From positions 1 through 64,000 of the IMG/VR virus record IMGVR_UViG_3300037116_000074: a stretch of DNA of 64,000 bases, one strand, 5' to 3'. The notes beneath the pieces are model-generated. The model worked only from the letters and a program-made list of their open reading frames with translations. It was not told the DNA's origin and did not search any database. Origin of the DNA: a virus. Every line of letters starts with the position of its first letter. The stretch's first letter is position 1. Positions 1 through 64,000 of this stretch are shown here, one piece after another. The translations under genes were made by a program, and so were the position numbers.

Positions 1-996
1 AATAATAACTTTATTGCGGGTTCGTTGTAAGACTGTTGCTGCTGTGAAATCATTCTCTGTGCCAGTTTTAAAGGCTGTATCTAGTGATAAAATACGTGGC
101 GGTATTAAATCCTCATCCTTAATTTTTTCGATATGTAGCCATTCCCGCTGTACTATGTTACCAGTTGCGATATATGGCTTCTGCTGAAAAGTTCCTGCAA
201 ACATTCGCGGCTTGCTTTCTTTAATTCCTTCTAGGATTTCCTTACTCAGTACGGCGGGCCATAGTGCTTCACCCTTTTGTCTGAATTCTTCATCTTCCTC
301 AGCTAGGGCAGGGAAATTAAATATCGTCCAGTCTTCTACTTTATGCTGTTCTTCGGGATCTAATAACCATCCATGTATATCATCATCACGCCACCTAGTG
401 CCAATAATAACCAAACGTCCATGTGGACATTTAGCATCAGACATCAGCCGGTTATAACATTCTTCTTCATACCATGCGCGGGCGTTCTCACGGAAGGCCT
501 CTGAATCAGCCTCTTCACGTCCTGGTATTAAATCATCAATAATAAATAGATTGGCACCACGACCCGTAATTTGACCACCAATACCAGAGAATAATAGTGA
601 GCCGCCTTGTTTGAATGAGAAGTCAGCCTTGGCATGCGATGACACATCTAAATCCATATGTGGAAAGATGAGCTTGTATGCATCACTCTTAATAATATTG
701 CGACACTTATAACCAAATCTAGTGGCTAATTTTTGTGTACCAGATACTACCATAACTTCAGAGCCTGGATTACGTCCGGCGAAATATGCAGGGAATATAA
801 CTGATGATGTTTCCGACTTACCATGCCTTGGGGGGAATGTAATCATAACCCGCGTAAGTTCACCGCGTTCGACTGCATCCAGAATGGACATCAGTTTTTG
901 TAGGTGCCAGGGGAATTGATATTTTGGTTGGACAGCGCGGGCAAACGAAATTAATTTCGAACTGCACTTTTCAACATAGTCAAAATCAGTCGTCAT
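1..996 (-). CDS. terL: Terminase large subunit (N-terminal part; runs off the window edge)
   Basis: Not in the ORF track; translated by hand from ATG at 996: MTTDFDYVEKC... with Walker A ITFPPRHGKSE, GGQITGRGANLFIIDD (Walker B), IIGTRW motif and nuclease-domain start ILSLDTAFKTGTENDFTA. Confidence 0.95.
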   Translation of the reverse strand, partial: MTTDFDYVEKCSSKLISFARAVQPKYQFPWHLQKLMSILDAVERGELTRVMITFPPRHGKSETSSVIFPAYFAGRNPGSEVMVVSGTQKLATRFGYKCRNIIKSDAYKLIFPHMDLDVSSHAKADFSFKQGGSLLFSGIGGQITGRGANLFIIDDLIPGREEADSEAFRENARAWYEEECYNRLMSDAKCPHGRLVIIGTRWRDDDIHGWLLDPEEQHKVEDWTIFNFPALAEEDEEFRQKGEALWPAVLSKEILEGIKESKPRMFAGTFQQKPYIATGNIVQREWLHIEKIKDEDLIPPRILSLDTAFKTGTENDFTAATVLQRTRNKVII

Positions 997-1414
997 GAAT
1001 TGCTTCTAAAATTTGAGCATCAATGCTTTCAATGAGTTTTATATTACTCTGCACCTTGATATTCTCCGGCGCTAGCTGCTGCACTGCAATAAACGTATTC
1101 TGTTGCTGCCTATTGCCACTATATAATTCATATAAATATTTACTTGCAGGAAACCGTTGTTTGTTTTCTGGAGTACTATCAGATGCAACATCTTTAATAA
1201 TATTCAGATATTCAATCGATGCCTTAATCTTAGCCATCACATAAGTCCCAGCGGCCTCATTATCGCTATGCATTAAATTACGACAGGTTCTATCGGGAAT
1301 ACCTAACCACAGCGCCGTCTGAAATTCATTCAGATTATTTTCACCTGCTTCGTGTATTTTACGAAGTAGTTCTGATCGGTTTTGTTCTTCTAGGATTACT
1401 GGTAGGTCAGGCAT
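986..1414 (-). CDS. Probable terminase small subunit
   Basis: 142 aa, directly upstream of and overlapping TerL; HTH-like segment (FQTALWLGIPDRTCRN). Confidence 0.6.
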   Translation of the reverse strand: MPDLPVILEEQNRSELLRKIHEAGENNLNEFQTALWLGIPDRTCRNLMHSDNEAAGTYVMAKIKASIEYLNIIKDVASDSTPENKQRFPASKYLYELYSGNRQQQNTFIAVQQLAPENIKVQSNIKLIESIDAQILEAIHDD

Positions 1415-1415
1415 G

Positions 1416-1823
1416 TTACACCTGCTCTATACGTCGCTGTTGTTTCAATTCTGGCATCCATGTAATTGTGCAACATGGAGATATATTGTTCAGTACACCT
1501 TCGATTGCTAACGTTAACCCATGATACATTCCACCATCGAACATCCACATACCCAGAATGGGAGGATTGGCATTAAATATTAAACGCCCGTTTTGCATTA
1601 ATTCAACTGATTTCGTGTCTTTCGGGAAATAACCATTTTCATCTGGGATACCGTCATAAACAGTGATTGATCCCGTCCCTTGATGTGTATTTGCTAATGC
1701 TCTCCAGGTGCATGTTCCATGTTCTAGAATATAGAACCCAGCACTTTGAGCGCAGAAAATTTTATTACCTATTGGGGGCCTGGGTAAGTCTACGTGATAG
1801 ATGGGTACTTTGTTTAAGATCAC
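1416..1823 (-). CDS. Hypothetical beta-rich protein, paralog of 9928-10266
   Basis: Coupled between portal and TerS; shares motifs with the 9928 ORF (G.xSI.DG...GR.I...G...GL.......P...ITW). Confidence 0.6.
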   Translation of the reverse strand: MILNKVPIYHVDLPRPPIGNKIFCAQSAGFYILEHGTCTWRALANTHQGTGSITVYDGIPDENGYFPKDTKSVELMQNGRLIFNANPPILGMWMFDGGMYHGLTLAIEGVLNNISPCCTITWMPELKQQRRIEQV

Positions 1824-3538: not shown

Positions 3539-3602
3539 CGTTAAATTATAACCTTATTTGTGCCTAATCTTAGTTGTTTCTGGTATCGATTAACATATAA
3601 TA

Positions 3603-3654: not shown

Positions 3655-3658
3655 AATC

Positions 3659-4509: not shown

Positions 4510-4812
4510 ATGACAGTTTTAAGGCCAAGTAAGATAGCCACTAAGCAAGAGTTTATTCAAGCTCTGCGCTCTGGTCAGTATGAACAGTGTAACGAAGTAA
4601 TGAAAAATGATGCCGGGCAACGATGTGCTTTAGGTGTGTTTCACGCCATTAGCGGAGATCCAGATGTGAATGACTTCCGCGCTTCTGATATCTTCCCAGC
4701 AAAGGTGTTTAGTAAAATCGCCCTACTTAATGATATCGGCAAAACATTTAATGAAATAGCAGATTTGTTAGAAATCGGTCTATCGGAAGATCTTCAAAGC
4801 TTTCACTATTAA
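4510..4812 (+). CDS. Phage hypothetical protein
   Basis: SD GGGAG; ALRSGQYEQ...CALGV...LNDxGKTFxEIADLLE pattern typical of phage small proteins. Confidence 0.65.
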   Translation: MTVLRPSKIATKQEFIQALRSGQYEQCNEVMKNDAGQRCALGVFHAISGDPDVNDFRASDIFPAKVFSKIALLNDIGKTFNEIADLLEIGLSEDLQSFHY

Positions 4813-4814
4813 AT

Positions 4815-5252
4815 ATGGCCATAGAAGTAGAAACAGTACCGGCCGGTTTTATACCGGAAGATAAGTACAAGGATTTTCGGGATGTCCGTTGTTGGCTAGC
4901 CCAGCTGTATAAGTACGCCCTGCAAGACCGTAAGCATCTGAAAACAAAGAAAGGCTTGGCCGTTGTTGATGCTGAGCATTTCGCAGTTCCTGCCCAGCAA
5001 TACACTCAAGAAGTTCAAAGCGTAACGACTGCTCTAATAGTTCTGGTATTACAGTTTAACGAAATGAAATGGCGTGATATAGACCTATCAACAACGCCCC
5101 CGCCGAAGATACCAGATTATTTATTATTAGGATTAATTAAACATTCATTGTTTTGTAATGAAGATATTGATACTGTTATCAAAGATGGCTTCAAACTTCG
5201 AACCCCGGAGAAAAAAGTTTTAAAGGAATTTGCCCTTAGGATGTGTGAATGA
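4815..5252 (+). CDS. Hypothetical protein
   Basis: 145 aa ORF in a tightly coupled operon. Confidence 0.55.
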   Translation: MAIEVETVPAGFIPEDKYKDFRDVRCWLAQLYKYALQDRKHLKTKKGLAVVDAEHFAVPAQQYTQEVQSVTTALIVLVLQFNEMKWRDIDLSTTPPPKIPDYLLLGLIKHSLFCNEDIDTVIKDGFKLRTPEKKVLKEFALRMCE

Positions 5253-5683
5253 AACTTCTATTAGATAAACAGAACAAAACTAATACAATCATTCTGGAGA
5301 AATTCAAGTTAACTAGTGAACAGGCCGGTGTGCTCTATAATTTTTGTAATACAGCATTAAATGTACCAGAAGTGATTGGTGGTATTTATTATCGTGATAT
5401 GCAGTCGCAAGACCATCTGATCGAATTAAATAATCAAATGTTATTCACTTTAGTATATACATTAAAATCTATGTCCTTGCGCTTACCTCTTGGGATTGTA
5501 TATGATACTGATTTAGTACCAATTCAGATGCTTGAAGTTATATTAAAGAAGCCAACTTGGGTGATTCAGTTATTACAATTTCTAGGCCTTCTTCCCCGCT
5601 TTCTACAATTCGGACATATGGAATTTAATCATGCTCCCAAGCCCAGCACACCAGTTTCTGACCCGATTCATCAATCGCCCTGA
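5249..5683 (+). CDS. Hypothetical protein
   Basis: ATGA-coupled 144 aa ORF. Confidence 0.5.
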   Translation: MKLLLDKQNKTNTIILEKFKLTSEQAGVLYNFCNTALNVPEVIGGIYYRDMQSQDHLIELNNQMLFTLVYTLKSMSLRLPLGIVYDTDLVPIQMLEVILKKPTWVIQLLQFLGLLPRFLQFGHMEFNHAPKPSTPVSDPIHQSP

Positions 5684-6503
5684 TGCTCATGCTCAGCAAT
5701 GGGCAGCACCCACTAGGCATGGCTATAAAGCCGTCTACGAACCGATTTCAGACCAGTTATTTGAAGATCACTTATTAGGTATTACAACTTTAGGAGTATA
5801 TACAACCAGCGCTGAAAACACTTGTCGGTGGCTGTGTATAGATGTGGATTCTGAGCAAGAAGAAGGTGTTATTACTGTTAGGACTTGGCTGGATAGTCAT
5901 GGAATTAGTAGTTTACGTGAGTCTAGGCGATTTGGCCGGTCGGGTCATATCTGGGTATTCTTCGATGCTCCAGTCCCAAGTACAATAACGTTTAATCTTG
6001 CCTGTTATCTGAGATATATCTCAGAATTAACAGCTGATATATTCCCTAAACAAGCTTCCCGTCCCGATAGTAGTTCGCCTGGCAATTTAGTAAGACTTCC
6101 ATTAGGGATGAATCAGAAACGTGATGCCCAAAACTGGGGTTTATTCGATGATTGTTCTAGCCAGGCCGTGGACCAGCAGCTCTTTTGGTTCTTAGAACAG
6201 CCTCTAAATTTGTCAGATAATATACTACATATTTCTAACAAAATACCGCCTCCAGTCGAAAAACCTTCAAAGCGGTCGAAAAGCCTTCAGACTATTAATT
6301 TATTAGCAGAATTCCCTATAGATTGGGGCATGCGTTCGTTACCATCGGGTGAAATTACGACCGGCTGCCCATGTTGTATAGAGTATGGTTTTGATAAAAC
6401 ACAGGATAATCTGTCAATTAAAGCCGATGGTAGCGCTCTGTTTTGCCACGGCGGCTGTAGTTTCGTAGATATTATGCAGTCTTTGCGTAAAGTTAAGATA
6501 TAA
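5631..6503 (+). CDS. Archaeo-eukaryotic primase/primase-polymerase (AEP) with C-terminal Zn-binding domain
   Basis: WLCIDVD (motif I), RSGHIWVFF (motif II), IFPKQ, GNLVRLPLG; C-terminal CPCC...FCHGGC. Confidence 0.8.
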   Translation: MLPSPAHQFLTRFINRPDAHAQQWAAPTRHGYKAVYEPISDQLFEDHLLGITTLGVYTTSAENTCRWLCIDVDSEQEEGVITVRTWLDSHGISSLRESRRFGRSGHIWVFFDAPVPSTITFNLACYLRYISELTADIFPKQASRPDSSSPGNLVRLPLGMNQKRDAQNWGLFDDCSSQAVDQQLFWFLEQPLNLSDNILHISNKIPPPVEKPSKRSKSLQTINLLAEFPIDWGMRSLPSGEITTGCPCCIEYGFDKTQDNLSIKADGSALFCHGGCSFVDIMQSLRKVKI

Positions 6504-6521
6504 TATATTCTATTATCAGGT

Positions 6522-7064
6522 TTGGTGTCCCATTTGAAAGGTTTTCTCCTATTATTTAGCTTCATATCGATAGGGAATTTCCTGTTACCTGCATATTGCA
6601 CAACTATTGCATGGAGTGGTACAGAACTAGCCTGCGACAGTCAATCAACTGGTAGCCATACTAAATACCATAGTGCTGTTCCTAAAATTATGTATAGCAA
6701 AACTAGACATGCTACTATCGCAGCTGCTGGTGATGTATCTGTTACAGCTCCAATTAAGAAATTTTTCATGTCTACCGACAAGCCATTATCAGAGTATAAG
6801 ATACCCGCAACTGCTAGAGATGGCTCTTTTGGTATCCTAATTATTTACGATGATGGTACGGCAGAAATATATTTAGCCAATTTGACAGATCCCGCCCCAG
6901 TTGATGCTCCGTTTGCACTTGGTAGTGGCGAAGATTTTGCGATGGCCGCAATGTTATGCGGTAAAACAGCAGCAGAAGCTGTTGAGATTGCTAAGCAGCT
7001 TGATCTTTATACTGGCGGCCATGTGTCTGTGTTACAGGCTCCTAAAGTAGCTGCAAGCCACTAA
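6522..7064 (+). CDS. HslV/proteasome-beta-like Ntn peptidase with N-terminal signal peptide
   Basis: TTIAW..ELACDSQ, VPKI, IAAAGD, FALGSG, AVEIAKQLDLYTGG; hydrophobic leader ending LPAYC. Confidence 0.75.
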   Translation: MVSHLKGFLLLFSFISIGNFLLPAYCTTIAWSGTELACDSQSTGSHTKYHSAVPKIMYSKTRHATIAAAGDVSVTAPIKKFFMSTDKPLSEYKIPATARDGSFGILIIYDDGTAEIYLANLTDPAPVDAPFALGSGEDFAMAAMLCGKTAAEAVEIAKQLDLYTGGHVSVLQAPKVAASH

Positions 7065-7902
7065 TAAATTCAGCATACAAGTTTAAGCCACCTGGACCAT
7101 ACCCGCCCCCACATGTTATTGCAAGGGGTATCTTCCGTACGGTTATTTGCCGTATAGTATCCCACCAGACTTCTATAAGCTCTGCTGCTAACATCTTGCC
7201 ATATTGCCCGAATAGAACATCATCTTGATACCAGTCGGTGCCGATGTTGAGGATGATTTTGTCTACGTTAGTGGGTATACACATAGGAAATACCTGTGGT
7301 GTTGATAGCGTTTCGGTGGTGAAATAAGACCTAGATAACCGTCCAGTTATATCACCATGTTTTTGGAGAATACCTTGGGGATGATGAACATCTATGATGT
7401 TAACCGTATCCCAATGATTATATCGATATTCGTCCCAAGTCCCTCCGCCAAAGTGAAAATCTAAATCTATAATCCCAATAGTTTTACCCTGTTCTAACTG
7501 ATAATCCACCGCCCAGATGATGTCGTTGATTAAGCTATAGGCATATCCTGTATTGGGATATTTCCCGGCATGGTGATAGCCGCCACCAAGGTTGATGCAG
7601 ATGGTGTCGGGAGTTGCAGATTGTAATGCACACATTGTATTAGTGACACGATTAGCTATACAGCATAGTAAGTTTTCGATTTCTAGATTATCCGGATCTA
7701 ATTGCCCTAATTCGAATGTTCGCTTTACATCGCCTAGATTAACTTCAAATTTATCGAAATATTCGAAATGGCATATTCCTTTAATATCAGTTAACTGATA
7801 CTTCTTCGCCAGTTCATGCATCGGCGCAAAGGGCATGCGAACATTAAGTGTTGCCCAGTCAATTGGTGTACAATCTCCGAAAATCTTTAAATTCATACTC
7901 AT
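7042..7902 (-). CDS. Histone deacetylase (HDAC/AcuC)-family Zn amidohydrolase
   Basis: GGGYHHA, INDI, IDLDFHFGGG, IGTDWYQDD and GGGY motifs. Confidence 0.9.
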   Translation of the reverse strand: MSMNLKIFGDCTPIDWATLNVRMPFAPMHELAKKYQLTDIKGICHFEYFDKFEVNLGDVKRTFELGQLDPDNLEIENLLCCIANRVTNTMCALQSATPDTICINLGGGYHHAGKYPNTGYAYSLINDIIWAVDYQLEQGKTIGIIDLDFHFGGGTWDEYRYNHWDTVNIIDVHHPQGILQKHGDITGRLSRSYFTTETLSTPQVFPMCIPTNVDKIILNIGTDWYQDDVLFGQYGKMLAAELIEVWWDTIRQITVRKIPLAITCGGGYGPGGLNLYAEFISGLQLL

Positions 7903-7978
7903 AATCTTAAACTACATTAACTTAGTTAGTCAATATAATTTGCTATCATTAACATATGAAATTTACAGGAGTCCGTTT

Positions 7979-9334
7979 GTGAAATATTCAATCCATTTAA
8001 AAAACAGCCCAGAGTCCGCCGAAGCAGTCATCGAACACCTAAAGATCGTCAAATACCTACGCCGTAAGGACATTAAGGCTGAACTCTGTGTTGGTAGGCC
8101 AATTATTAAATTCGAAGTTAATCAGCCAGGTATTATTACTCATCTTAAGAAACAATTTGATGACCAGATATTATGTGTTTTATCTAATAAACATGGTGAG
8201 GGGCAGTATAGACGTCCTAGTCAGCATGTTACAGCAGGCGCTGCACCAACCGCACTGATACCCTCTCAAGTAGCCAAAGCCTACAACTTTCCGGCCCCAG
8301 GCCCTACTATTAAACAGAAAGTCGTTGCCATCATAGAGCTAGGCGGTGGTTACAATCCATCCGATGTTTTAACTTACTGCAAACAGCAGAACATAGCCAT
8401 GCCTAGATTATGGGGGCATAATATCGACACTGGTTCTAATTCTCCCGATGGCCCAGAAGGTGCCGATGGAGAAGTAAGTTTAGATATAGATGTTGTGACC
8501 GCCATAGCCCCAGGGTGCCAAATCTTGGTTGTGTTTGCTCCTAATACCACTAATGGGATTATCGATGCTATAGCTAATATGAGTAACTATGTATTAAAAC
8601 CTGATGTGGTCAGTAATTCATGGGGTATGCCTGAAGGTGATTGGGACCCAGCTGTTATGCAGGCGATAAATAATGCTATCAAATCTTGTGTAGATAAAGG
8701 TATCAATTTCATAGCTGCCGCTGGCGATGATGGTAGTTCTGATGGCGCAAAAGGTAAAAATGTTGACTTCCCCGCTTCTAGTCCTTATGCTATTTCCTGT
8801 GGTGGTACTAGGTTAATATTAAATCCAGATGGTACTAGACAGAGCGAAGTTGTATGGAATGATTTAAAGAAAGGTGAAGGCGCTACAGGTGGTGGAATAT
8901 CCGCCGAACAAGTAGCAGATCCTATCCAAGGCAATGCACTAGGAGTAGAGCTTAGGCACTCTCCGGATATCTCAGGTAACGCAGATCCAGAATCCGGTTA
9001 TATTGTTGATGTTGATGGTAATATATCTTCCATTGGTGGTACTAGTGCAGTAGCTCCACTTTATGCCGGTTTAGCCGTTCTATTGGCTAGTAATTTAGAC
9101 GAACCATTACCCGATTTACGGAAGGTATTATATGCGAACCCTAATGTATGTTTCGATGTTGTTTCCGGGAATAATGGTGCTTACAGCGCTGGTCCTGGTT
9201 ACGATTGTTGTTCGGGACTTGGTGTTGTTGATGGAATGAAGTTGTTGAATGTTCTGAAACCGACAGCGACACAGAAGGTTATGAAATTTTTAAAACAACC
9301 AATTGGGGATTTGTTACGAAATATTTCACGTTGA
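7979..9334 (+). CDS. Sedolisin/kumamolisin (S53) serine-carboxyl protease
   Basis: GEVSLDID (catalytic Glu/Asp), SNSWG, AAAGDDG, FPASSPY, PDISGNADP, GGTSAVAP, YDCCSGLG; start placed at GTG 7979 after SD AGGAG. Confidence 0.93.
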   Translation: MKYSIHLKNSPESAEAVIEHLKIVKYLRRKDIKAELCVGRPIIKFEVNQPGIITHLKKQFDDQILCVLSNKHGEGQYRRPSQHVTAGAAPTALIPSQVAKAYNFPAPGPTIKQKVVAIIELGGGYNPSDVLTYCKQQNIAMPRLWGHNIDTGSNSPDGPEGADGEVSLDIDVVTAIAPGCQILVVFAPNTTNGIIDAIANMSNYVLKPDVVSNSWGMPEGDWDPAVMQAINNAIKSCVDKGINFIAAAGDDGSSDGAKGKNVDFPASSPYAISCGGTRLILNPDGTRQSEVVWNDLKKGEGATGGGISAEQVADPIQGNALGVELRHSPDISGNADPESGYIVDVDGNISSIGGTSAVAPLYAGLAVLLASNLDEPLPDLRKVLYANPNVCFDVVSGNNGAYSAGPGYDCCSGLGVVDGMKLLNVLKPTATQKVMKFLKQPIGDLLRNISR

Positions 9335-9724: not shown

Positions 9725-9931
9725 ATGGAACTAACTAAATATCGACAGCTGGAGATAATTTTAGCTAAATATAATGAATGTATGATTGAATTATACGGCG
9801 AACTTATAGAACTAGTCCCACCCCAACATAAACCAATATTAATGCAAGGATTGAGATTAAGTTTAATTCAAGTAAGTGAGGCATTTAGAATCGTGTCAGA
9901 TATGATATTTCAAGATAAGATTAAGCCATGA
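9725..9931 (+). CDS. Hypothetical protein
   Basis: 68 aa ORF in a coupled operon. Confidence 0.5.
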   Translation: MELTKYRQLEIILAKYNECMIELYGELIELVPPQHKPILMQGLRLSLIQVSEAFRIVSDMIFQDKIKP

Positions 9932-10266
9932 AACAACCCTGTGAATATGTAGATATCGCTGAAGCCACTGGTACTATCATATTAGACCGTGGTCGTCATC
10001 GCTTTGAATGGAATGCTACAGCTCCAGGTACATTTAAATTATCCGGTGCTAAACATGTTAAATTCTACGCTATGACTAACTGGAAGAATAATGGACATTT
10101 GTCTATTATGGATGGGGTCGGAAGGGTTATTGCAAAGTGGCCATCATTGTTTACTGGTTCGTTCTGCCTGGAAGGCTACGCCGAAGGCGGCTTATATGTT
10201 CGGGTTGGTGCTGTAGGGTCTATAGCGCCGAAAGTTAATATTACGTGGTATGAAGCTGATGCCTGA
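9928..10266 (+). CDS. Hypothetical beta-rich protein, paralog of 1416-1823
   Basis: ATGA-coupled; aligns by eye with the 1416 ORF. Confidence 0.6.
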   Translation: MKQPCEYVDIAEATGTIILDRGRHRFEWNATAPGTFKLSGAKHVKFYAMTNWKNNGHLSIMDGVGRVIAKWPSLFTGSFCLEGYAEGGLYVRVGAVGSIAPKVNITWYEADA

Positions 10267-10720
10267 CCTCAACACAGCCGGATATCAAGCCAGGAGATCC
10301 TGGTCTGATGCTCATTTAACACAAGTCAAGCAAGCTCTTGGGCGGAAATTTATTATTGAAGCTAGTTTTAAACTAGATACTGAGTATGGTACTGATTTAG
10401 TAGTGCCAGATTTAAAATTTGCCGTTCGGTTACGCCAATCGAAATATTCGAATTATAGAGACTTTACACTCAGAAGCAGCGGCGGTGGAGAGCGTTCTGA
10501 ATATGCTAAATTATTAGACATTCATAAATCGCCAGATTTCCTATTCTACGGCTACGCCCTAGATAAAAATACTCTCATGGCCGGTTATCTTATTGACTTG
10601 CCAGCATGGCGTGCTAGTCTTATACTGCGTGAGATGAAGCCTGTGTTTAGAAGAAATAGCGATGGTAGTCATTTCGTGGCGTTTCCTTTCTTAGAATCAT
10701 ATAGTGAACAAATCATATGA
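10250..10720 (+). CDS. Possible PD-(D/E)XK-like nuclease
   Basis: DTEYGTDLVV...FAVRLR...DFTLRS...DFLFYGY. Confidence 0.45.
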   Translation: MKLMPDLNTAGYQARRSWSDAHLTQVKQALGRKFIIEASFKLDTEYGTDLVVPDLKFAVRLRQSKYSNYRDFTLRSSGGGERSEYAKLLDIHKSPDFLFYGYALDKNTLMAGYLIDLPAWRASLILREMKPVFRRNSDGSHFVAFPFLESYSEQII

Positions 10721-10983
10721 AATACATCGACGGCACCGCAATCTTAAATTACTTACAACCGTTAGTCGAAGCTAAACGCCAAGAGCGAAGAGATTTGTCG
10801 CTGAAAATAAGTGAAACAAAATACGGATTAGAGAGAATGGAGAAAGAATGGCTGAAAATTTATATTGAATGTAAACAATTGGAAGATACTATCGCGCCTA
10901 TACAAGTAGCTCAGAGTATGCAGAATGTTATTGCTCTGCCCGTTGAAGGGATTTATGAGGAACCGGATGATGCTTCCAAATGA
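10717..10983 (+). CDS. Hypothetical coiled-coil protein
   Basis: ATGA-coupled 88 aa ORF. Confidence 0.5.
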   Translation: MKYIDGTAILNYLQPLVEAKRQERRDLSLKISETKYGLERMEKEWLKIYIECKQLEDTIAPIQVAQSMQNVIALPVEGIYEEPDDASK

Positions 10984-46788: not shown

Positions 46789-47016
46789 TTAAACCTCAAT
46801 AACAGTCCCTAACTCTTGTCCTTCTTGTACGAATTCACCCTCATGAACAAGCAGCTCTAGTTTACCATTCAATTCATTAGTAACTTCATAAAATAGCTTC
46901 ATAACTTCAATGTTGAGAATTAACTCATCTACCTTGACTATAGAGCCCGAAGGCATTAGTATTTGAGATACAATTCCTGAAACTGGTGAAAATAAGGTTT
47001 CTTTACGCATATGCAT
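46789..47016 (-). CDS. Stand-alone biotinyl/lipoyl carrier domain
   Basis: SPVSGIV....G.IVKVDE.ILNIEVMKL.YEV....NG.....V.EGEFVQEGQEL, with the E-x-M-K attachment lysine. Confidence 0.88.
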   Translation of the reverse strand: MHMRKETLFSPVSGIVSQILMPSGSIVKVDELILNIEVMKLFYEVTNELNGKLELLVHEGEFVQEGQELGTVIEV

Positions 47017-47532
47017 CCCGATTTAATAGCTGAACAATTATACAACGCTATGCAGCAACCGCCCGATAGAAAAACGTGGAGACGGTTTTTGCGTAAATTT
47101 AGTCTACCTGATGAAAATGCATGCTGGGAATGGAAAGCATACCTGAATCCTGCATATTATGGACAATTTAGATTGCGTAATTATAAACATGGGTTAGATT
47201 TGGCGACTAGGGTTATTATGACATGGCTATATGGACCTATCCAAGCAACATTGGTCGTTGATCATATGATGTGTAATAATCCTCCCTGTATTAATCCACA
47301 ACATCTGCATATCACTAGTCAAAGGGAAAATTTATTACGCTCTGATCAGACCTTAGCTGGGAAATGTATACGTAAAACTCATTGCCCACAAGGACATGCA
47401 TATTCTTTCATGAATACCCGGATAAGTTATAAGCGGGGATGTCCAGGCCGTACATGTCGTAAGTGTGATGCAATCAAGCAGGCTCTAAAACGACAGCACA
47501 TCAAGAGGGGTGACTTGTTATTACAATTATAG
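47011..47532 (+). CDS. HNH endonuclease (His-Me finger, HNH_3-like)
   Basis: CWEW, YGQF, VVDHMMCNNPPCINPQHL....REN, KTHCPQGH. Confidence 0.88.
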   Translation: MHPDLIAEQLYNAMQQPPDRKTWRRFLRKFSLPDENACWEWKAYLNPAYYGQFRLRNYKHGLDLATRVIMTWLYGPIQATLVVDHMMCNNPPCINPQHLHITSQRENLLRSDQTLAGKCIRKTHCPQGHAYSFMNTRISYKRGCPGRTCRKCDAIKQALKRQHIKRGDLLLQL

Positions 47533-49172: not shown

Positions 49173-49539
49173 GACTATTTATTTAGCCGGGCAAATGTCC
49201 GGTGTGAAAAATCATAACTATCCTAAATTCTTCAGAGGGCAGGCTAGGCTGGAGAAAGCTGGCTATGAAGTAATTAATCCAGCCAGATTAAACACCGTAG
49301 GTGATGCCTGGAGCGATTGTTTGCGGAATGACATTCTACATATTGTAAAATATTGTGACGGAATTGCCCTCCTGGATGACTGGATGTTATCACGGGGTGC
49401 TAGATTAGAGTTAGCAATTGCATTAAGATTAGAAATGTTTGTAATTTCAGCGCACACGCTAAAACCAATGCATATTACATTAGATAAATTGTTCTTACAT
49501 CGCAAGAGGGGTGGATATGTCGCAAGATACAAAGGATAA
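49099..49539 (+). CDS. DUF4406 / nucleoside 2-deoxyribosyltransferase-like protein
   Basis: IYLAGQMSG..NYPKF, VINPA, CDGIALL..W..SRGARLE. Confidence 0.85.
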   Translation: MSGFMSNKKPLTQKSTQESRPKQRKTIYLAGQMSGVKNHNYPKFFRGQARLEKAGYEVINPARLNTVGDAWSDCLRNDILHIVKYCDGIALLDDWMLSRGARLELAIALRLEMFVISAHTLKPMHITLDKLFLHRKRGGYVARYKG

Positions 49540-50023
49540 GAAGCGTACAATACGACCACTGAATCAACGGTTGAAAGATGCAGCTAATCTACTAGCTGCG
49601 CCTAAATTATTTAGACCAATATTAGATAAGAATATATATGGTAATAATTCATTTGAAGATTTAGATGTACCAAAAGTTCATATCACTATCACTCCCGATC
49701 CGAACTATGATACCGGTGCAAAGAAAAACGATTCCGGTAAACTCCCTATTGATCTCATACCAGTACGCCCCTTATTGGATTTAGCAGCTGTTTTACAACA
49801 CGGGCAAATTAAATATGATGCCAACAACTGGCGTAATGGGTTTTTGTTTAGCCGTACCTATGCAGCAGCACAACGACATCTCCTAGCTTGGCATAGTGGT
49901 GAGGATAACGATTCTGATTCGGGGCTTAGTCATTTAATGCATGCAGCTTGTAATTTATTTTTTCTTTCAGAATTTATGACAACACATAAGGAATTAGATG
50001 ACAGGGTAAAACAAAATGACTAA
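49511..50023 (+). CDS. dATP/dGTP diphosphohydrolase-like protein (DUF5664)
   Basis: KNDSGKLPIDLIP, GQIKYDANNWRNG, AAQRHL, DSDSGLSHLMHAACN. Confidence 0.88.
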   Translation: MDMSQDTKDKKRTIRPLNQRLKDAANLLAAPKLFRPILDKNIYGNNSFEDLDVPKVHITITPDPNYDTGAKKNDSGKLPIDLIPVRPLLDLAAVLQHGQIKYDANNWRNGFLFSRTYAAAQRHLLAWHSGEDNDSDSGLSHLMHAACNLFFLSEFMTTHKELDDRVKQND

Positions 50024-50204
50024 AAATGAATTGAAATTAATCAAGAAAACTACATTAGTAGCGGCAATTGAATTGGTATGCCTTCACTTTCATGGACAAG
50101 GTGCTACTGAAGCTGAGCAGGCTGATTATTGGATTCGAAAAGCAATTATAGGTAAGAAAGGAATAGAAATTAATGCCGAAGAAACACAACCAGTATCTGA
50201 ATAA
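50016..50204 (+). CDS. Hypothetical protein
   Basis: Coupled small ORF. Confidence 0.45.
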   Translation: MTKNELKLIKKTTLVAAIELVCLHFHGQGATEAEQADYWIRKAIIGKKGIEINAEETQPVSE

Positions 50205-50691
50205 ACTCCTATTACTGATAACTCTGTTCGTAATTTGCGTACCATCATACGCAGAGTGCGTAACTATCCAGCGCGTCATAGATGGCGATACTGTTGTCAC
50301 CGAAGCTGGCGAACATGTACGCTTAGCGGAGATAGACGCTCCAGAGCATAATCAACGATTCGGGTATGAGTCCACACAATATCTTATTCATCTATTGGCA
50401 GTAACGGATAATGTTGTAGAACTAGATCGTGGCGATCACGATCGCTATGGACGAACTATTGGATTTTTGAATAGTAAGACTATAGGTTGCTTAAATTCTT
50501 TAATGGTTATGGATGGATACGCCTGGGTATATGTGAAATATGCTCACGATGCCGGTGTTTGGTATAGAGCAGAGAATCAGGCTAAATTTAATCATCTGGG
50601 GTTATGGATCGATAGAAATCCAGTGCCACCTTGGACGTTTAGGTTAATGGAGAAGCAACACTCTCCCATGCTGTATAGGATAAGACAATGA
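50173..50691 (+). CDS. Thermonuclease (SNase) with signal peptide
   Basis: RVIDGDTV, VRLAEIDAPE, DRYGRTIG, GLW....PPW; leader ending VPSYA. Confidence 0.93.
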   Translation: MPKKHNQYLNKLLLLITLFVICVPSYAECVTIQRVIDGDTVVTEAGEHVRLAEIDAPEHNQRFGYESTQYLIHLLAVTDNVVELDRGDHDRYGRTIGFLNSKTIGCLNSLMVMDGYAWVYVKYAHDAGVWYRAENQAKFNHLGLWIDRNPVPPWTFRLMEKQHSPMLYRIRQ

Positions 50692-50870
50692 ATAGGCTTG
50701 AAAAACAAGAACGATTATTCGCTATTACACAGCTAGCTAAAGCTATCTTCATAGAGAAAGCAAAACAAATTAGCTTTACGCAAGATGTGGATGTAAGCTT
50801 AATGGTAGCAGAATGTTTTATAGCGGCGGAGCAATTTCTAGATGGGCAAGAGGCTTATGCTAAAAAATAA
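50688..50870 (+). CDS. Hypothetical protein
   Basis: ATGA-coupled ORF. Confidence 0.45.
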   Translation: MNRLEKQERLFAITQLAKAIFIEKAKQISFTQDVDVSLMVAECFIAAEQFLDGQEAYAKK

Positions 50871-51306
50871 TAAATTATTAGTTCTTTTATTCCTAGTAAC
50901 TTTTATGTTACCAGCGACTGCCAGGCCGGCTATGCAAATATTCTATGGTGCCAAGGTGATGCATATCTGTAATGCCAATACCATTATTGTGAATGATTTA
51001 TACACGCATGAATTAGAGACAGTAATTATAGCCGGTACAATAGCACCGACTAATTTTAATCAGGATGATAATGGGAAGCGATACCTTACTACTATGATAC
51101 TGGGGCAAGAAGTAGATGTCTTGTCGTATGGGCACGACAAGTATGGTCGTGTTGTCGCAGATTTGAAAGATCATCGAAATTTATGGATATCATACGATTT
51201 GATTGCAGGTGGGTTCGTATATTGGAATAGAAGTCTAGGGTATGACTATACAGCAGAGCACTGTGAGAACTTTGCTAGGAAGCATCATAGTGGGGTGTGG
51301 AGGTAG
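50842..51306 (+). CDS. Degenerate thermonuclease paralog with signal peptide
   Basis: DKYGRVVA and GVW are retained; DGDT becomes NANT and RLxxIDAPE becomes IIAGTIAPT. Confidence 0.75.
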   Translation: MGKRLMLKNNKLLVLLFLVTFMLPATARPAMQIFYGAKVMHICNANTIIVNDLYTHELETVIIAGTIAPTNFNQDDNGKRYLTTMILGQEVDVLSYGHDKYGRVVADLKDHRNLWISYDLIAGGFVYWNRSLGYDYTAEHCENFARKHHSGVWR

Positions 51307-60767: not shown

Positions 60768-60777
60768 AACCAGAAAT

Positions 60778-61302
60778 ATGGCTCCTTTACATTTCATTCT
60801 ATTTAAGCGCTATAATAATGCGACTACATGGTTACCTATGATTACACAGGAAATAGTCAAAGAATTATTGGATTACAATCCCCTAACCGGGATTGTAACT
60901 TGGCGTACCAGCGGTCATAAACGAACCAAAGGTGCTATAGCTGGCTCACTCAATCAGCCCTTAAATCGATACTATATCAGTATTCATTACAAACAATATG
61001 CTTTAGCTAGAGTTATCTGGTTATATTATTATGGAATTTGGGCAAAGATAGACATTGATCACATCAATCAAAACCCATTAGATAATAGGATAGAAAATTT
61101 ACGCACGGCTAGCAGAAGCCTAAATTGTCATAATTCTAAGATTAGTACGCGCAATACATCGGGACACAAAGGGGTAAGCTATTGCCCGCGCGGACAATAT
61201 TGGATATCAGATGTTACAATAGAACATTGTCGTATTCAGAAATATTTTAAAACAAAACAAGAAGCCATTAAACATCGTCAATCAATCCAGGTGCCAACAT
61301 GA
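60778..61302 (+). CDS. HNH homing endonuclease with AP2-like C-terminus
   Basis: LLDYNP.TG, IDHINQNPLDNRIENLR, NTSGHKGVSY; likely start MITQE (60838). Confidence 0.88.
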   Translation: MAPLHFILFKRYNNATTWLPMITQEIVKELLDYNPLTGIVTWRTSGHKRTKGAIAGSLNQPLNRYYISIHYKQYALARVIWLYYYGIWAKIDIDHINQNPLDNRIENLRTASRSLNCHNSKISTRNTSGHKGVSYCPRGQYWISDVTIEHCRIQKYFKTKQEAIKHRQSIQVPT

Positions 61303-61973: not shown

Positions 61974-62031
61974 ATCTAATAGATTTTACCGGGAGAAAAA
62001 AAATTTTTGGAAAAAATAGGAGGGTGCCCGG

Positions 62032-63483
62032 TTAATTATAGACAGCATGGGCCTGTGTTAATATTTTCTTACGATATACTTCTGTTAATTTAATCCCAAC
62101 CCGAACGCGTGTTCCACCACCTAATTGGCTAGATTTAAGATTTCCATTATTAAGCATACGACCGAATGCATTCTTGGATGGAGCATCGTGATTATTTTCA
62201 TTACACCAAATCATAAATGCATCATATAATGCTTTCATTGGTTCGCTGTCATATACTTCGCTAGTGCAAGCATCAGCAATAAATTGCGCCAACAAATCAT
62301 TTTCATTCATATAGCTACTACCGGCACTATCTACGATTGCAACTTTAATTAGAGATTTCTTAGATAATACCTGCTGAGCAAAGTACATCATTCTATTTAA
62401 TATATAAGGTGCTTCGGCACGTAGAACAGACTTATCGAAATCTTTAATGCGATTAGCTTCACTAATCTGGTGGGCAAATGGTAATATTTTTAAGCGTCTA
62501 GCAAACCCTGCATCAGCACCGTCTACTGGAGGTTTATTATTACTGGTGAATAATAGTTTGCATACCGGCATAAAATTAATGGTTTTACCATGCATCTCAC
62601 GGGCAGTTATCGGATTACCGCTGGTAATAGCTTTAATTTTTGCTTCATTAAATTTTCCCTTCAGCTCATCAATGAATACGAATCGTTTACCAATTAAACG
62701 CATATCTTGTTCTGGATGTGGCGTGTTGTATGTATCGGCAAATTGCGCTTGTGGTGCTAAGTACCCATATTCATTTAAAATATATAACCAGACGCCAGCC
62801 AATGATGATTTACCAGTACTTGCTAGACCGTGAAACCAGTAAAACTCCTGCTGAAATGTTTCGCCAGTTAATATATATCCGGATAACTCTTCCAGATATT
62901 GTTCCATTTCGGGGTCACCGTGGGCCATGAATTTTATATGATTAATATAATTCGGACACAGAGAGCCATCTTGATCATCGTTTGGTGCAACCGTAGTAAT
63001 TTGCCTACAGAAATTAGATGCTGCCTGCTCTAACAATGTATTTGTTAATAAATTATATAGTCCTTCGGGGGTATTCAGTAGTAATGAGTTAGTGTCAAAT
63101 TCCTGTGGGAGAATTTGCATTCTGAGATCTCTTTGTAAGATATTTATTACATTGTCTGTAAATGTAGGTCCATGAGCCTTAGACAATCCAGTCATAAACT
63201 GTGGCATGCCCTTCTTGGCTTGCAAATCACGCTTCATTTCGGCGATAACATCGCGTAATACCATATACAAGCTATTATTTTGCTGCCAATGCGTTCCTGT
63301 GAATGAATACCATGCATTTGAGCATGGTTCATATCGGAACATAGGGCTTAATAGTGGTATTAATATATCCGCCACCAAATTAGCCGAAAAAACATGGTGG
63401 CCGTTTTCGTTTTGGTGGGTTTCACGGCCCTCTATATTGACATAATTTTCGTACCACTTATGTCCCGATGGAAGTAGTTTCAT
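62032..63483 (-). CDS. D5-like (P4-family) SF3 helicase without a primase domain
   Basis: LLNTPEG..NL.T (D5_N), HGLASTGKS, KRFVFIDE, ITSGNPITAREMH, FTSNNKP, RRLKILPF. Confidence 0.92.
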   Translation of the reverse strand: MKLLPSGHKWYENYVNIEGRETHQNENGHHVFSANLVADILIPLLSPMFRYEPCSNAWYSFTGTHWQQNNSLYMVLRDVIAEMKRDLQAKKGMPQFMTGLSKAHGPTFTDNVINILQRDLRMQILPQEFDTNSLLLNTPEGLYNLLTNTLLEQAASNFCRQITTVAPNDDQDGSLCPNYINHIKFMAHGDPEMEQYLEELSGYILTGETFQQEFYWFHGLASTGKSSLAGVWLYILNEYGYLAPQAQFADTYNTPHPEQDMRLIGKRFVFIDELKGKFNEAKIKAITSGNPITAREMHGKTINFMPVCKLLFTSNNKPPVDGADAGFARRLKILPFAHQISEANRIKDFDKSVLRAEAPYILNRMMYFAQQVLSKKSLIKVAIVDSAGSSYMNENDLLAQFIADACTSEVYDSEPMKALYDAFMIWCNENNHDAPSKNAFGRMLNNGNLKSSQLGGGTRVRVGIKLTEVYRKKILTQAHAVYN

Positions 63484-63886
63484 CCGGTTCCCCTAATAGT
63501 TGCTGTGCTTGGTCTATACTACTGATTATATGGGCAAAACCGCCTTGAGCATTAATTAAATCTCTCATATCGATTTGTTCTGGTGTAGTACGCCCCTGGC
63601 CGTCGAATCGTTTTAATTCCATAGCGCAGAATTGGGCGATAGTTTGACCGACCATATCTGGTGTAATTGTTAATTGTCTCCACCCTATGTAGTCAGGCAT
63701 CCCATCGGGGCCACATCCAGCCTTTAAGCGCCTGGCGAAACCTAATACGACTGAAGAGCCATTATGTTTAATAAGTTTGCCTGCGTAGAAGTTTCCGCGC
63801 AGATTGGAGAATAGCTTAACCCGTGGTAGTTTAGTAATAAGGCGTTCGAAGGCGACTTTAGATTCGTTCTCAGGAGTTTTTTGCAT
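63458..63886 (-). CDS. VRR-NUC-type nuclease
   Basis: GMPDYIGW, FCAMELKR, TPEQ......INAQGG. Confidence 0.8.
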   Translation of the reverse strand: MQKTPENESKVAFERLITKLPRVKLFSNLRGNFYAGKLIKHNGSSVVLGFARRLKAGCGPDGMPDYIGWRQLTITPDMVGQTIAQFCAMELKRFDGQGRTTPEQIDMRDLINAQGGFAHIISSIDQAQQLLGEPDETTSIGT

Positions 63887-64000
63887 CTACCCTCCTAACG
63901 AATCGTTAGCCAGTAAGTCAGTGATTTCCTGACTTGCTGGTGAGTATTTTGGCTCTAATTCTGTTTTAGCTTCTTGATAGAATTTATATACAATTTCATC
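63887..64000 (-). CDS. 3' end of an unidentified gene (truncated by the window)
   Basis: Open frame ...DEIVYKFYQEAKTELEPKYSP...DSLGG, stop abutting the VRR-NUC start. Confidence 0.45.
   Translation of the reverse strand, partial: DEIVYKFYQEAKTELEPKYSPASQEITDLLANDSLGG

What the first reader, a model, noticed from the sequence alone, without database searches (positions are those of the whole stretch)
1..64000. Apparent complete absence of the non-palindromic 4-mer CGAG/CTCG
Seen: reading through the window I found hundreds of CGAA, CGAC, CGAT and ATCG, GTCG, TTCG sites but no CGAG or CTCG, in coding and non-coding DNA alike, including the HNH genes. GATC, GGCC, CCGG, CTAG and TCGA all occur freely. 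Base composition alone would give on the order of a hundred or more sites per strand (rough estimate). The scan was manual, so a few sites could have been missed. Inference: strong, long-lasting selection against an asymmetric 4-bp target, either by a host defence (restriction- or modification-guided) or because the phage's own nuclease cuts host DNA at this motif.
Basis: seen in the sequence. Interest (0 to 1): 0.8.

Follow-up and report, generated by a model that had tools for sequence, protein, structure and literature searches.

The report
Phage clade purged of CGAG
An uncultured peat-soil phage and all its close relatives have removed every copy of the four-letter word CGAG, on both DNA strands, from about 240,000 bases; this is most likely an unusually complete escape from a DNA-cutting defence that reads this word.

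Summary
CGAG/CTCG occurs 0 times in the window and 0 times in the whole 72,375-bp phage genome. Nulls give about 150-210 sites, and it is the only absent 4-mer. Codon usage does not explain it. GAG, CGA, CTC and TCG are all used freely, but never in the one neighbour context that would make the word. Synonymous-codon shuffles give 167±12 sites.

The purge is clade-wide. All 11 related records at 40-46% GC (about 240 kb) have zero sites and form one capsid clade (100/98 support). All 25 rows outside the clade are normal. Other avoided restriction-type words differ from record to record.

CG(m6A)G is a documented Type III methylation motif (PMC4525171, PMC9044749). So the best reading (about 0.5) is long-standing avoidance of a host CGAG-reading defence. 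The purge of both orientations goes beyond what Type III logic requires.

The HNH and SNase genes are not conserved in the clade. A clade-specific restriction-endonuclease-like protein (10250-10720) remains a candidate for a self-imposed purge (about 0.2). The host is unknown.

Earlier notes of this scan report CGAG-related purges on other DNA (e1-6073327, e1-5878018); I did not check them.

The parts
1..64000 (.). Whole window, part of a 72,375-bp circularly assembled myovirus-like phage genome at 40% GC, with no CGAG or CTCG on either strand.
   Evidence: counts and nulls; codon-context table; synonymous shuffle 166.8 +/- 12 vs 0; intergenic 0 vs 17.5-26.7.
10250..10720 (+). 156-aa protein of an uncatalogued family with a restriction-endonuclease-like (PD-(D/E)XK-like) predicted fold and a predicted symmetric homodimer. 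It is the candidate agent of a self-imposed purge, or alternatively the phage's junction resolvase.
   Evidence: No Pfam, PHROGs or PADLOC hit. AF2 pLDDT 84.5. VIA-align: DpnI Z 6.9, NhoI 5.6, D212 5.4, PvuII 5.3, Hjc 4.8, all under the tool's caution line of 8. Homodimer ipSAE 0.73 vs best control 0.34. Present in 4 of 4 CGAG-free records and in no other held sequence.
4510..9334 (.).
   Evidence: tblastn presence/absence table; Pfam: AEP-TOTE for 5631-6503.
47011..47532 (+). HNH endonuclease gene. It is not conserved in the CGAG-free relatives, so it is unlikely to be the agent.
   Evidence: HNH_3 / phrog_826; no homologue in G001, G003 or G004.
60778..61302 (+). Second HNH endonuclease gene, also not conserved in the clade.
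   Evidence: phrog_99, HNH_3 2.2e-11; absent from the table of shared genes.
50173..51306 (+). Two SNase-like nuclease genes (50173-50691, 50842-51306), not conserved in the clade.
   Evidence: PF00565; no homologue in any held relative.

Best explanation
The phage lineage has been under continuous selection against any CGAG site in its double-stranded DNA. The most likely agent is a host-encoded DNA-targeting defence that recognises CGAG, a restriction-modification system of Type III or a related kind. Each new site exposes the incoming genome to cleavage, so mutations that create one are removed. All pre-existing sites have been replaced by synonymous or neutral alternatives. Shown: the purge, its independence from codon usage, its presence in non-coding DNA, its clade-wide extent, and the fact that CG(m6A)G is a real R-M methylation motif in other organisms. 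Inferred: that the host of this clade carries such a system, and that cleavage is the selective force.
For: (1) 0 sites against 149-210 expected in the window, and CGAG is the only absent 4-mer. (2) Context-dependent synonymous choice: GAG is used 202 times but 0 of 123 Glu codons after a C-ending codon. CGA is used 95 times but 0 of 198 Arg codons before G. CTC is used 107 times but 0 of 624 Leu codons before G. TCG is used 155 times but 0 of 223 Ser codons after C. xCG|AG and xCT|CG both occur 0 times. The synonymous shuffle gives 167 +/- 12. (3) Both words are missing from both strands and from intergenic DNA, which fits a duplex-DNA reader better than an RNA reader. (4) Zero copies rules out any role that needs at least one copy (origin, pac site, promoter). 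(5) All 11 related records at 40-46% GC (about 240.7 kb) have zero sites. They form one capsid clade (6 of 6 rows; support 100/98), and all 25 rows outside it are normal. (6) The same genomes also avoid classical restriction-type palindromes, and these differ between records (CTGCAG, CCATGG and GGTACC in G000; CGCG, GCCGGC and GCATGC in G001; TGCGCA in G003; ACATGT and GAAGAC in G004). Site avoidance is therefore this lineage's general anti-restriction habit. (7) CG(m6A)G is the published motif of Type III ModA4 of H. influenzae (PMC4525171, passages), of a Type III system of P. thermosuccinogenes (PMC9044749, Table 1) and of M.MaeV of M. aeolicus (PMC10113651, passages). (8) Gene blocks have inverted relative to each other within the clade. 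A 'keep one orientation' escape from a Type III enzyme would therefore be unstable, and a two-strand purge is the stable end point.
Against: The host is unknown, so no CGAG-reading system has been seen in it. Type III enzymes are described as needing inversely oriented site pairs, so removing one orientation would be enough (PMC6286503, Discussion passages). Here both orientations are gone in every record. A survey of phage genomes found avoidance of Type III sites only rarely (PMC6286503, abstract). R-M specificities usually vary between strains, as the other avoided words here do. Yet the CGAG purge is complete and universal across a clade as deep as 43-45% capsid identity. That points to an unusually stable agent or to one the phages carry themselves. 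I found no unrelated phage with a CGAG-only purge among 235 held loci of 4 kb or more. So there is no independent sign that the pressure comes from a shared host. The purge, the low GC and a set of clade-specific genes all arose on the same branch and cannot be separated.
Confidence: 0.5

Rival explanations
1. Self-imposed purge. The clade-specific restriction-endonuclease-like protein (10250-10720) cuts or nicks DNA at CGAG and is used against host or competitor DNA. In prophages its relatives sit beside a methyltransferase, but in this clade the gene stands without one, and the phage protects itself by having no sites.
For: The family is present in 4 of 4 CGAG-free records (G000, G001, G003, G004). 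It is absent from G005, G006, G007 and from every other held sequence by HMM search. All of the best 14 structural matches are PD-(D/E)XK nucleases: DpnI Z 6.9, NhoI 5.6, D212 5.4, PvuII 5.3; Foldseek's best hit is the Eco15I N-terminal domain, E 3.6e-4. In 3 of 3 bacterial prophage contexts found among 401 genomes, the homologue lies directly beside an MT-A70 adenine methyltransferase, and those regions have no absent 4-mer. Two of these three regions are syntenic, so they count as about two independent arrangements. In G000 its neighbours are small unknown ORFs, not a methyltransferase. A phage-borne agent would explain why this purge is universal and complete while the other avoided words vary.
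Against: The co-occurrence is fully confounded by phylogeny: one clade, one origin. The Z scores are all under 8, where the tool warns of common arrangements. A canonical (D/E)xK motif was not identified in the alignment. The protein is predicted to be a symmetric homodimer (ipSAE 0.73, best control 0.34; the mark was reached by 20 of 30 solved pairs of one chain and 1 of 23 single chains; runs agree in at least 94% of contacts; partner pLDDT at least 79). That fits a palindrome or a four-way junction better than an asymmetric word. G000 has no detectable VRR_NUC, Hjc, RusA or RuvC, so this protein may simply be the phage's junction resolvase. I recall no precedent for a phage nuclease tolerated through site avoidance alone, and I made no literature search for that specific point.
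Confidence: 0.2
2. Methylation-dependent restriction. The phage's own Dam-family adenine methyltransferase (genome 71294-71737, outside the window) methylates phage DNA broadly. A host modification-dependent nuclease that reads m6A in a CG(m6A)G or G(m6A)G context then selects against that word.
For: The methyltransferase matches PF05869 (E 1e-29, 103.8 bits) and a PADLOC orphan-MTase model (6.8e-48). It is conserved in G003 and G004. A G(m6A)G-binding protein that binds GCG(m6A)G and CG(m6A)G well has been described (bioRxiv 10.1101/2025.05.22.655678, abstract and passages). A single modified site in either orientation would be enough, which fits the two-strand purge. An unrelated phage lineage that shares only this methyltransferase (L237/L239) has almost no GAG/CTC at all: 3 of 248 and 4 of 179 expected.
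Against: The methyltransferase's specificity is unknown; that members of this family can be non-specific is my recollection and was not confirmed in PMC3299994. About 20 other loci that carry a related methyltransferase have normal GAG and CGAG counts. The described protein is a binder from Vibrio, and no nuclease activity or phage restriction is claimed in the abstract I read. G001 is only 55% complete and its methyltransferase status is unknown.
Confidence: 0.1
3. The absence has no selective cause at DNA level: codon usage, mutational bias, RNA-level cleavage, or an assembly or sequencing artefact.
For: GAG is the most under-represented trinucleotide in the window (896 vs 1,251), and GAG is also low in CGAG-normal GC-rich relatives (0.37-0.52 of order-0 expectation).
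Against: Synonymous shuffles that keep codon usage give 167 +/- 12 sites. The avoidance is specific to neighbour context. Intergenic DNA is purged as well. An RNA-level agent would need only the sense word, but both CGAG and CTCG are missing from genes on both strands. There are 4,600 one-substitution neighbours in the genome, so a mutational bias alone could not hold the count at zero. Records from several collections all show the purge with intact reading frames, and I left their samples unidentified.
Confidence: 0.03

Closest known systems
Restriction-site avoidance in virulent dsDNA phages (survey: Rusinov et al. 2018, PMC6286503)
   Same: Short words that are targets of DNA-cutting defences are eliminated or strongly depleted, in coding and non-coding DNA, through synonymous choices. 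The same genomes here also avoid classical 6-bp palindromes.
   Different: [quoted passage not shown] Here the word is a 4-bp asymmetric one, eliminated completely on both strands, and the purge is fixed across a deep clade rather than in single genomes. The survey's tables for asymmetric Type II sites are in a supplement I could not open.
Type III R-M systems with the 4-base motif CG(m6A)G: ModA4/M.HinC486I of H. influenzae (PMC4525171); a Type III system of P. thermosuccinogenes (PMC9044749); M.MaeV of M. aeolicus (PMC10113651)
   Same: Exactly the same word. It is asymmetric with a single adenine, so only one strand can carry m6A.
   Different: Those are methylation motifs read from methylomes of unrelated organisms. 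No phage restriction at CGAG was shown in the passages I read, and none of those organisms is the likely host of a peat phage with an amidase endolysin. Type III logic predicts that purging one orientation is enough.
One-orientation escape from inverted-pair-dependent systems (T7/EcoP15I as summarised in PMC6286503; MANTIS, bioRxiv 10.64898/2026.09.23.753747, abstract only)
   Same: Asymmetric hemimethylated short words drive depletion in virulent phages. The MANTIS abstract states that single sites and direct repeats are still restricted, only less efficiently, which would keep some pressure on both orientations.
   Different: Those cases show strand-biased depletion. Here there is no strand bias, because both orientations are at zero. 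MANTIS words are 6 bp.
Phage-encoded restriction-type nucleases paired with methyltransferases (prophage modules found here: family member next to MT-A70)
   Same: The 156-aa protein of this clade belongs to the same uncatalogued family (35% identity to the G034 copy).
   Different: In this clade the gene is not next to a methyltransferase, and the genome lacks one word completely. The prophage regions have no absent 4-mer.

Membership tests
Restriction-site avoidance by a phage | The word count lies far below composition-, Markov- and codon-preserving nulls | tested here: met
   0 vs 210 +/- 14, 149 and 166.8 +/- 12 in coding DNA.
Restriction-site avoidance by a phage | Avoidance holds in non-coding DNA and in all codon phases (a DNA-level cause) | tested here: met
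   Intergenic 0 vs 17.5-26.7; six context classes all at zero.
Restriction-site avoidance by a phage | The avoided word is the recognition site of a system present in the host | not testable with these tools
   The host is unknown. There are no tRNA genes. The nearest cultured-phage relatives infect Ralstonia and Komagataeibacter at 33% capsid identity. Runs that hold the DNA are labelled peat and permafrost metagenomes.
Restriction-site avoidance by a phage | The word is a known R-M recognition or methylation motif somewhere | tested here: met
   CG(m6A)G: PMC4525171, PMC9044749, PMC10113651.
Target of a classical Type III R-M system | Short asymmetric word with an adenine on one strand only | tested here: met
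   CGAG has one A and CTCG has none (read from the sequence).
Target of a classical Type III R-M system | Escape is achievable by removing one orientation, so strand-biased depletion is expected | tested here: not met
   Both orientations are at 0 in G000, G001, G003 and G004. Block inversions within the clade could make a one-orientation solution unstable, so this lowers the Type III reading but does not exclude it.
PD-(D/E)XK restriction endonuclease (for 10250-10720) | Restriction-endonuclease-like core fold | tested here: inconclusive
   The best 14 VIA-align matches are all PD-(D/E)XK nucleases, but with Z 4.3-6.9, under the caution line of 8. Foldseek gave 1 hit at E <= 0.001, with TM 0.34.
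PD-(D/E)XK restriction endonuclease (for 10250-10720) | Catalytic D...(D/E)xK residues | tested here: inconclusive
   Residues invariant across the wide family are D, D, D, R, R, R, E and Y, with K nearly invariant. No canonical (D/E)xK strand motif could be assigned from the alignments.
PD-(D/E)XK restriction endonuclease (for 10250-10720) | Cognate methyltransferase gene adjacent | tested here: not met
   In G000 the neighbours 9928-10266 and 10717-10983 have no methyltransferase signature. Bacterial prophage homologues do have an adjacent MT-A70, in 3 of 3 contexts.
Holliday-junction resolvase (Hjc / VRR_NUC type) for 10250-10720 | Match to a resolvase family model | tested here: not met
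   No VRR_NUC, Hjc, RusA or RuvC match anywhere in G000 at E <= 0.1. The fold match to Hjc has Z 4.8 only.
Holliday-junction resolvase (Hjc / VRR_NUC type) for 10250-10720 | Symmetric homodimer | tested here: met
   Prediction only: ipSAE 0.73 vs best control 0.34; the mark was reached by 20 of 30 solved pairs of one chain and 1 of 23 single chains; at least 94% contact agreement; partner pLDDT at least 79.
PF05869 Dam-family N6-adenine methyltransferase (genome 71294-71737) | Match above Pfam's gathering score, with an NPPY motif | tested here: met
   103.8 bits vs cut-off 28.1; NPPY is seen in the translation.

The most novel reading that the evidence does not exclude
The purge is self-imposed. 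A small restriction-type nuclease that in prophages is paired with an MT-A70 methylase has, in this phage clade, shed its methylase. It is tolerated only because the phage genome contains no CGAG at all. This would be a weapon against host or rival DNA in which 'self' is defined by the complete absence of a 4-base word rather than by methylation.
Probability: 0.17. Interest if true: 0.85.

Novelty: new variant of a known kind. Interest (0 to 1): 0.6.

Why it matters
Restriction-site avoidance is textbook for palindromic Type II sites. A large survey found it only rarely for Type III sites (PMC6286503). Here an asymmetric 4-base word, known elsewhere as a Type III methylation motif, has been removed completely from both strands and kept out during a divergence as deep as 43-45% capsid identity.

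That implies one of two things. Either a remarkably stable CGAG-reading defence exists in an uncultured peat bacterium, one that acts on single sites or on either orientation. Or the agent travels with the phages themselves. Both are testable.

The word also gives a simple signature. Zero CGAG at about 41% GC could be used to recognise members of this phage group, and perhaps their host's other phages, in metagenomes. The uncatalogued nuclease-like family (1,609 representative clusters) that sits beside MT-A70 methylases in prophages deserves characterisation in its own right.

Tried and rejected
Codon usage as the cause: rejected.

HNH and SNase genes as the agent: rejected because they are not conserved in CGAG-free relatives.

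Z-genome or other hypermodification as an explanation: a MazZ-like domain (PF18909) and DUF4406 are present. No PurZ-sized homologue was seen among the ORFs, and base modification would not remove a word from the assembled sequence. Not pursued.

Strand-biased words: no convincing case. The best is CAACTC, 0 vs 16 in G000, p 3e-5 among about 2,600 words.

CGAG strand asymmetry in other loci bearing the methyltransferase (for example L225, 62:6): matched by synonymous shuffles, so it is codon usage.

Host identification all failed or was uninformative:
- no tRNA genes;
- cultured-phage tblastn with the capsid, three tail proteins and the endolysin gave only distant hits to phages of Ralstonia, Komagataeibacter, Dinoroseobacter, Actinobacteria and others;
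- megablast of 10 kb found nothing;
- the protein atlas on the endolysin returned viral clusters;
- the genome-contig scan gave only GC-rich proteobacterial prophages at 40% capsid identity or less.

My idea that the variable avoided palindromes resemble cyanobacterial R-M repertoires rests on recall only and was not tested.

The 156-aa family has no match in 50,697 phage records with two queries, in PADLOC, in Pfam or PHROGs, or in PDB sequences (best E 0.33).

The MCP tree used 31 of 154 distinct capsid rows: those with at least 37.5% identity to G000 or from loci under 50% GC. The other 123, all from loci at 50% GC or more, were left out.

Literature searches for a phage-wide CGAG purge or a CGAG/CTCG-cutting enzyme found none. 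The one paper holding 'CGAG', 'bacteriophage' and 'avoidance' uses CGAG only as a control word. Additional file 6 of PMC6286503 (asymmetric Type II sites) and the supplements of PMC4525171 may bear on how unusual this is.

Full report
OBSERVATION

CGAG and CTCG each occur 0 times on the + strand of the 64,000-base window. CGAA, CGAC, CGAT, ATCG, GTCG and TTCG occur 98-254 times each.

Three nulls for the window:
- 100 dinucleotide-preserving shuffles give 210 ± 14 sites on both strands.
- The maximal-order Markov expectation is 149.
- CGAG/CTCG is the only one of the 256 tetranucleotides that is absent.

The window is part of a 72,375-bp record with a 26-bp terminal overlap. The tool reports it as a virus record with direct terminal repeats, 100% complete. 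The remaining 8.4 kb also has no site.

NOT CODON USAGE

In 116 ORFs (66,930 coding nt) the codons that could contribute are all in use: GAG 202, CGA 95, CTC 107 and TCG 155 times. Each drops to zero in exactly the neighbour context that would make the word:
- 0 of 123 Glu codons after a C-ending codon are GAG. After A, G or T the GAG counts are 85 of 296, 41 of 144 and 76 of 388.
- 0 of 198 Arg codons before a G-starting codon are CGA.
- 0 of 624 Leu codons before G are CTC.
- 0 of 223 Ser codons after C are TCG.
- xCG is never followed by AG.
- xCT is never followed by CG.

Shuffling synonymous codons within each gene keeps the proteins and the (already biased) codon usage. It gives 166.8 ± 12.0 sites, minimum 133 in 200 shuffles. 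The 6,767 nt of intergenic DNA has 0 sites against 17.5-26.7 expected.

The genome holds 4,600 words one substitution away from CGAG, so new sites must arise constantly and be removed. Both words are missing from genes on both strands and from spacers. That fits a reader of duplex DNA rather than of mRNA. A count of zero excludes any role that needs at least one copy.

WHAT THE GENOME IS

It is a myovirus-like phage of 40% GC. It has a terminase, portal, sheath, baseplate and fibre genes, a capsid gene (39481-40890), an Amidase_2 endolysin and an AEP primase-polymerase. It also has a D5-type helicase, a ResIII/SNF2 helicase and a Cas4-like exonuclease. Two HNH genes, two SNase-like genes and a Dam-family (PF05869) methyltransferase complete the list; the methyltransferase is at genome 71294-71737, outside the window.

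There are no tRNA genes. The nearest cultured phages, of Ralstonia and Komagataeibacter, share 33% capsid identity. Runs that hold the DNA are labelled peat and permafrost metagenomes: X1-X4, with shares 1.00 to 0.29, and X1 may be the source. The host is unknown.

THE PURGE IS A CLADE TRAIT

I collected relatives through the capsid, sheath, S53 peptidase, helicase and methyltransferase genes.

Every relative at 40-46% GC that belongs to the capsid clade, or shares its sheath or accessory genes at 53% identity or more, has zero CGAG/CTCG:
- G001 (39,659 bp; capsid 43-45% identical);
- G003 (61,843 bp; 67%);
- G004 (30,218 bp);
- L001, L178, L179, L161, L162, L163 and L168.

With G000 that makes 11 records and about 240.7 kb. 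Some fragments may belong to one genome. In each of the four large records CGAG/CTCG is the only absent 4-mer.

Of the first 160 loci, only L001 and L006 had an observed/expected ratio of 0. The next lowest was 0.72 and the median 1.07. L026 (43% GC, outside the clade) has 79 sites against 80 expected.

In a maximum-likelihood capsid tree of 31 rows the six CGAG-free rows form one clade (support 100/98), with G001's row (L006) as its deepest branch. The rows were chosen as at least 37.5% identical to G000 or from loci under 50% GC, out of 154 distinct rows. All 25 rows outside the clade are normal. The purge, the drop to about 41% GC and a set of accessory genes therefore arose on the same branch.

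OTHER AVOIDED WORDS VARY

- G000 lacks or nearly lacks CTGCAG, CCATGG, GGTACC, GGCGCC and GGATCC.
- G001 has CGCG 12/149, CACG 40/127, GCCGGC 2/22, GCATGC 0/9 and CTGCAG 0/18.
- G003 keeps CTGCAG at the expected level in the two stretches tested (28 vs 29 in L180, 14 vs 17 in L184), but has GGCC 54/242 and TGCGCA 4/20.
- G004 lacks ACATGT, GAAGAC and GGCGCC.
- GGCC and GATC are moderately low in all four.

This is the usual picture of changing restriction pressures. Against it, CGAG stands out as the one complete and universal purge.

Among the 12 one-substitution neighbours of CGAG, only CGCG (0.71-0.84; 0.08 in G001) and CGTG (0.75-0.86; 0.31 in G001) are low in all four records. CGGG is not (1.05-1.19). 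This could mean relaxed reading of the third position, or separate systems.

WHAT READS CGAG?

CG(m6A)G is a documented methylation motif:
- Type III ModA4 (M.HinC486I) of H. influenzae, noted by its authors as unusual for being four bases long (PMC4525171, passages);
- a system listed as Type III in P. thermosuccinogenes (PMC9044749, text and Table 1);
- M.MaeV of Methanococcus aeolicus, single-strand m6A (PMC10113651, passages);
- a review table that repeats the ModA motif (PMC10073500).

A host Type III-like system is thus the simplest agent. Two things do not fit neatly.

First, Type III enzymes are described as needing head-to-head site pairs, so excluding one strand's sites would be enough. 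A survey also found Type III site avoidance to be rare (PMC6286503, abstract and Discussion passages). Here both orientations are at zero everywhere.

Two considerations soften this. Gene blocks have inverted relative to one another between G000 and G001 and, in two small blocks (3 genes), between G000 and G003, so a one-orientation solution would be broken by each inversion or mosaic exchange. For a related inverted-pair-dependent system, single sites and direct repeats are reported to be restricted, only less efficiently (MANTIS, bioRxiv 10.64898/2026.09.23.753747, abstract only).

Second, the stability of this one specificity across so deep a clade is unlike the turnover shown by the other words.

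THE PHAGE'S OWN NUCLEASES

The HNH genes (47011-47532, 60778-61302) and the SNase-like genes (50173-51306) have no homologue in G001, G003 or G004. They cannot explain a clade-wide trait.

It is one of five genes present in all four CGAG-free records and not found in G005 or G007. A direct search also missed it in G006. An HMM search of all held sequences finds it only in the four CGAG-free records.

It has no Pfam, PHROGs, PADLOC or PDB-sequence match. Its AlphaFold model (pLDDT 84.5) resembles PD-(D/E)XK nucleases. The scores are DpnI Z 6.9 (rmsd 4.1 Å over 117 residues), NhoI 5.6, the D212 nuclease 5.4, PvuII 5.3 and Hjc 4.8. All lie under the tool's caution line of 8. Foldseek's best hit is the Eco15I N-terminal domain, E 3.6e-4, TM 0.34.

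A profile search shows a much wider, uncatalogued family: 1,609 representative clusters at E ≤ 0.001. Forty-five sampled members match nothing relevant in Pfam (two unrelated families, one member each, at E about 0.005-0.007) and nothing in PHROGs. Two queries found nothing in 50,697 phage records.

In 401 genomes of one bacterial phylum the family occurs in 3. Each time it is in a prophage-like replication module, directly beside an MT-A70 adenine methyltransferase and near a ResIII/SNF2 helicase and a Cas4-like nuclease. Two of the three are syntenic, so there are about two independent arrangements. Those regions have no absent 4-mer (CGAG 110/151 and 85/119). In G000 the gene has no methyltransferase neighbour.

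This pattern is what a 'nuclease that lost its methylase and is tolerated through site absence' would look like. But it is one phylogenetic event. The protein is predicted to form a symmetric homodimer (ipSAE 0.73 against a best control of 0.34; the mark was reached by 20 of 30 solved pairs of one chain and 1 of 23 single chains; runs agree in at least 94% of contacts; partner pLDDT at least 79). That suits palindromes or junctions rather than an asymmetric word. G000 has no recognisable VRR_NUC, Hjc, RusA or RuvC, so the protein may simply be its resolvase.

A THIRD POSSIBILITY

This rival involves the conserved Dam-family methyltransferase. If it methylates adenines broadly, a modification-dependent nuclease that reads G(m6A)G contexts would select against such words. 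A protein binding GCG(m6A)G and CG(m6A)G has been described (bioRxiv 10.1101/2025.05.22.655678).

In passing, I found an unrelated phage lineage (L237/L239) that shares only this methyltransferase and has almost no GAG/CTC at all. About 20 other loci that bear the methyltransferase are normal.

VERDICT

The inference of strong, long-lasting selection on an asymmetric 4-bp DNA word is supported. The agent is unresolved. I give 0.5 to a host CGAG-reading defence (Type III-like or a single-site relative), 0.2 to a self-imposed purge tied to the 156-aa nuclease-like protein, 0.1 to modification-dependent restriction, and little to non-selective causes.

In kind this is restriction-site avoidance. 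In form it is a variant that I did not find in print: asymmetric, four bases, both strands, complete, and fixed across a deep clade.

Earlier notes of this scan report a one-strand CGAG purge in another soil phage (e1-6073327) and a near-absence in a marine phage (e1-5878018). I did not test them. If they hold, CGAG-directed pressure is not confined to this clade.

Noticed in passing
L237:1-9811 and L239:1-7207 (IMG/VR contigs; 97.9% identical over 3.3 kb, so one lineage): A phage unrelated to this clade, sharing only the Dam-family methyltransferase, has almost no GAG/CTC trinucleotide: 3 vs 248 and 4 vs 179 expected. Glu is GAA 212: GAG 1, and CTC Leu codons number 0. CTAG, GGCC, CGCG and CCCG/CGGG are also absent, TA O/E is 0.42 and GC O/E is 0.57. 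This is a 3-base purge with the same GAG core.
   Followed up: partly
window 10250-10720; L249:14634-15146 (-); L253:6124-6594 (+): The 156-aa protein belongs to a large family absent from Pfam and PHROGs (1,609 representative clusters). In three bacterial prophage regions it sits directly beside an MT-A70 methyltransferase, near a ResIII/SNF2 helicase and a Cas4-like nuclease. This may be an undescribed nuclease-methylase module of phage replication regions.
   Followed up: partly
G001 record (L176+L177), whole length: The deepest CGAG-free relative also has CGCG at 12 vs 149 expected and the asymmetric word CACG/CGTG at 40 vs 127. So CG[A/C/T]G words are all low while CGGG is normal.
   Followed up: partly
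G000 genome, whole length: CAACTC occurs 0 times on the + strand and 16 times on the - strand (p 3e-5 among about 2,600 words tested, borderline). This may be a one-orientation avoidance.
   Followed up: no
window 48056-50023: A nucleotide-metabolism cluster: a kinase-like P-loop protein, DUF4406 (nucleoside deoxyribosyltransferase-like) and a MazZ-like dATP/dGTP diphosphohydrolase domain (PF18909, 5.7e-32). No PurZ-sized partner was seen, and the phage has no DNA polymerase gene among the ORFs scanned.
   Followed up: no
L253:6450-9044 (+): The ResIII/SNF2 helicase in one bacterial prophage context carries an intein (Intein_splicing 1.5e-11, Hint_2).
   Followed up: no
G005 and G007 records (GC-rich relatives): The CGAG-normal sister phages show their own strong purges. 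G005 has CCAGG 4/147, CGATCG 8/123 and GGCGCC 2/111. G007 has GACTC 12/56, GTCGAC 4/47, and CCCGGG and AGGCCT at 0/27. Site avoidance is thus a family-wide habit.
   Followed up: no
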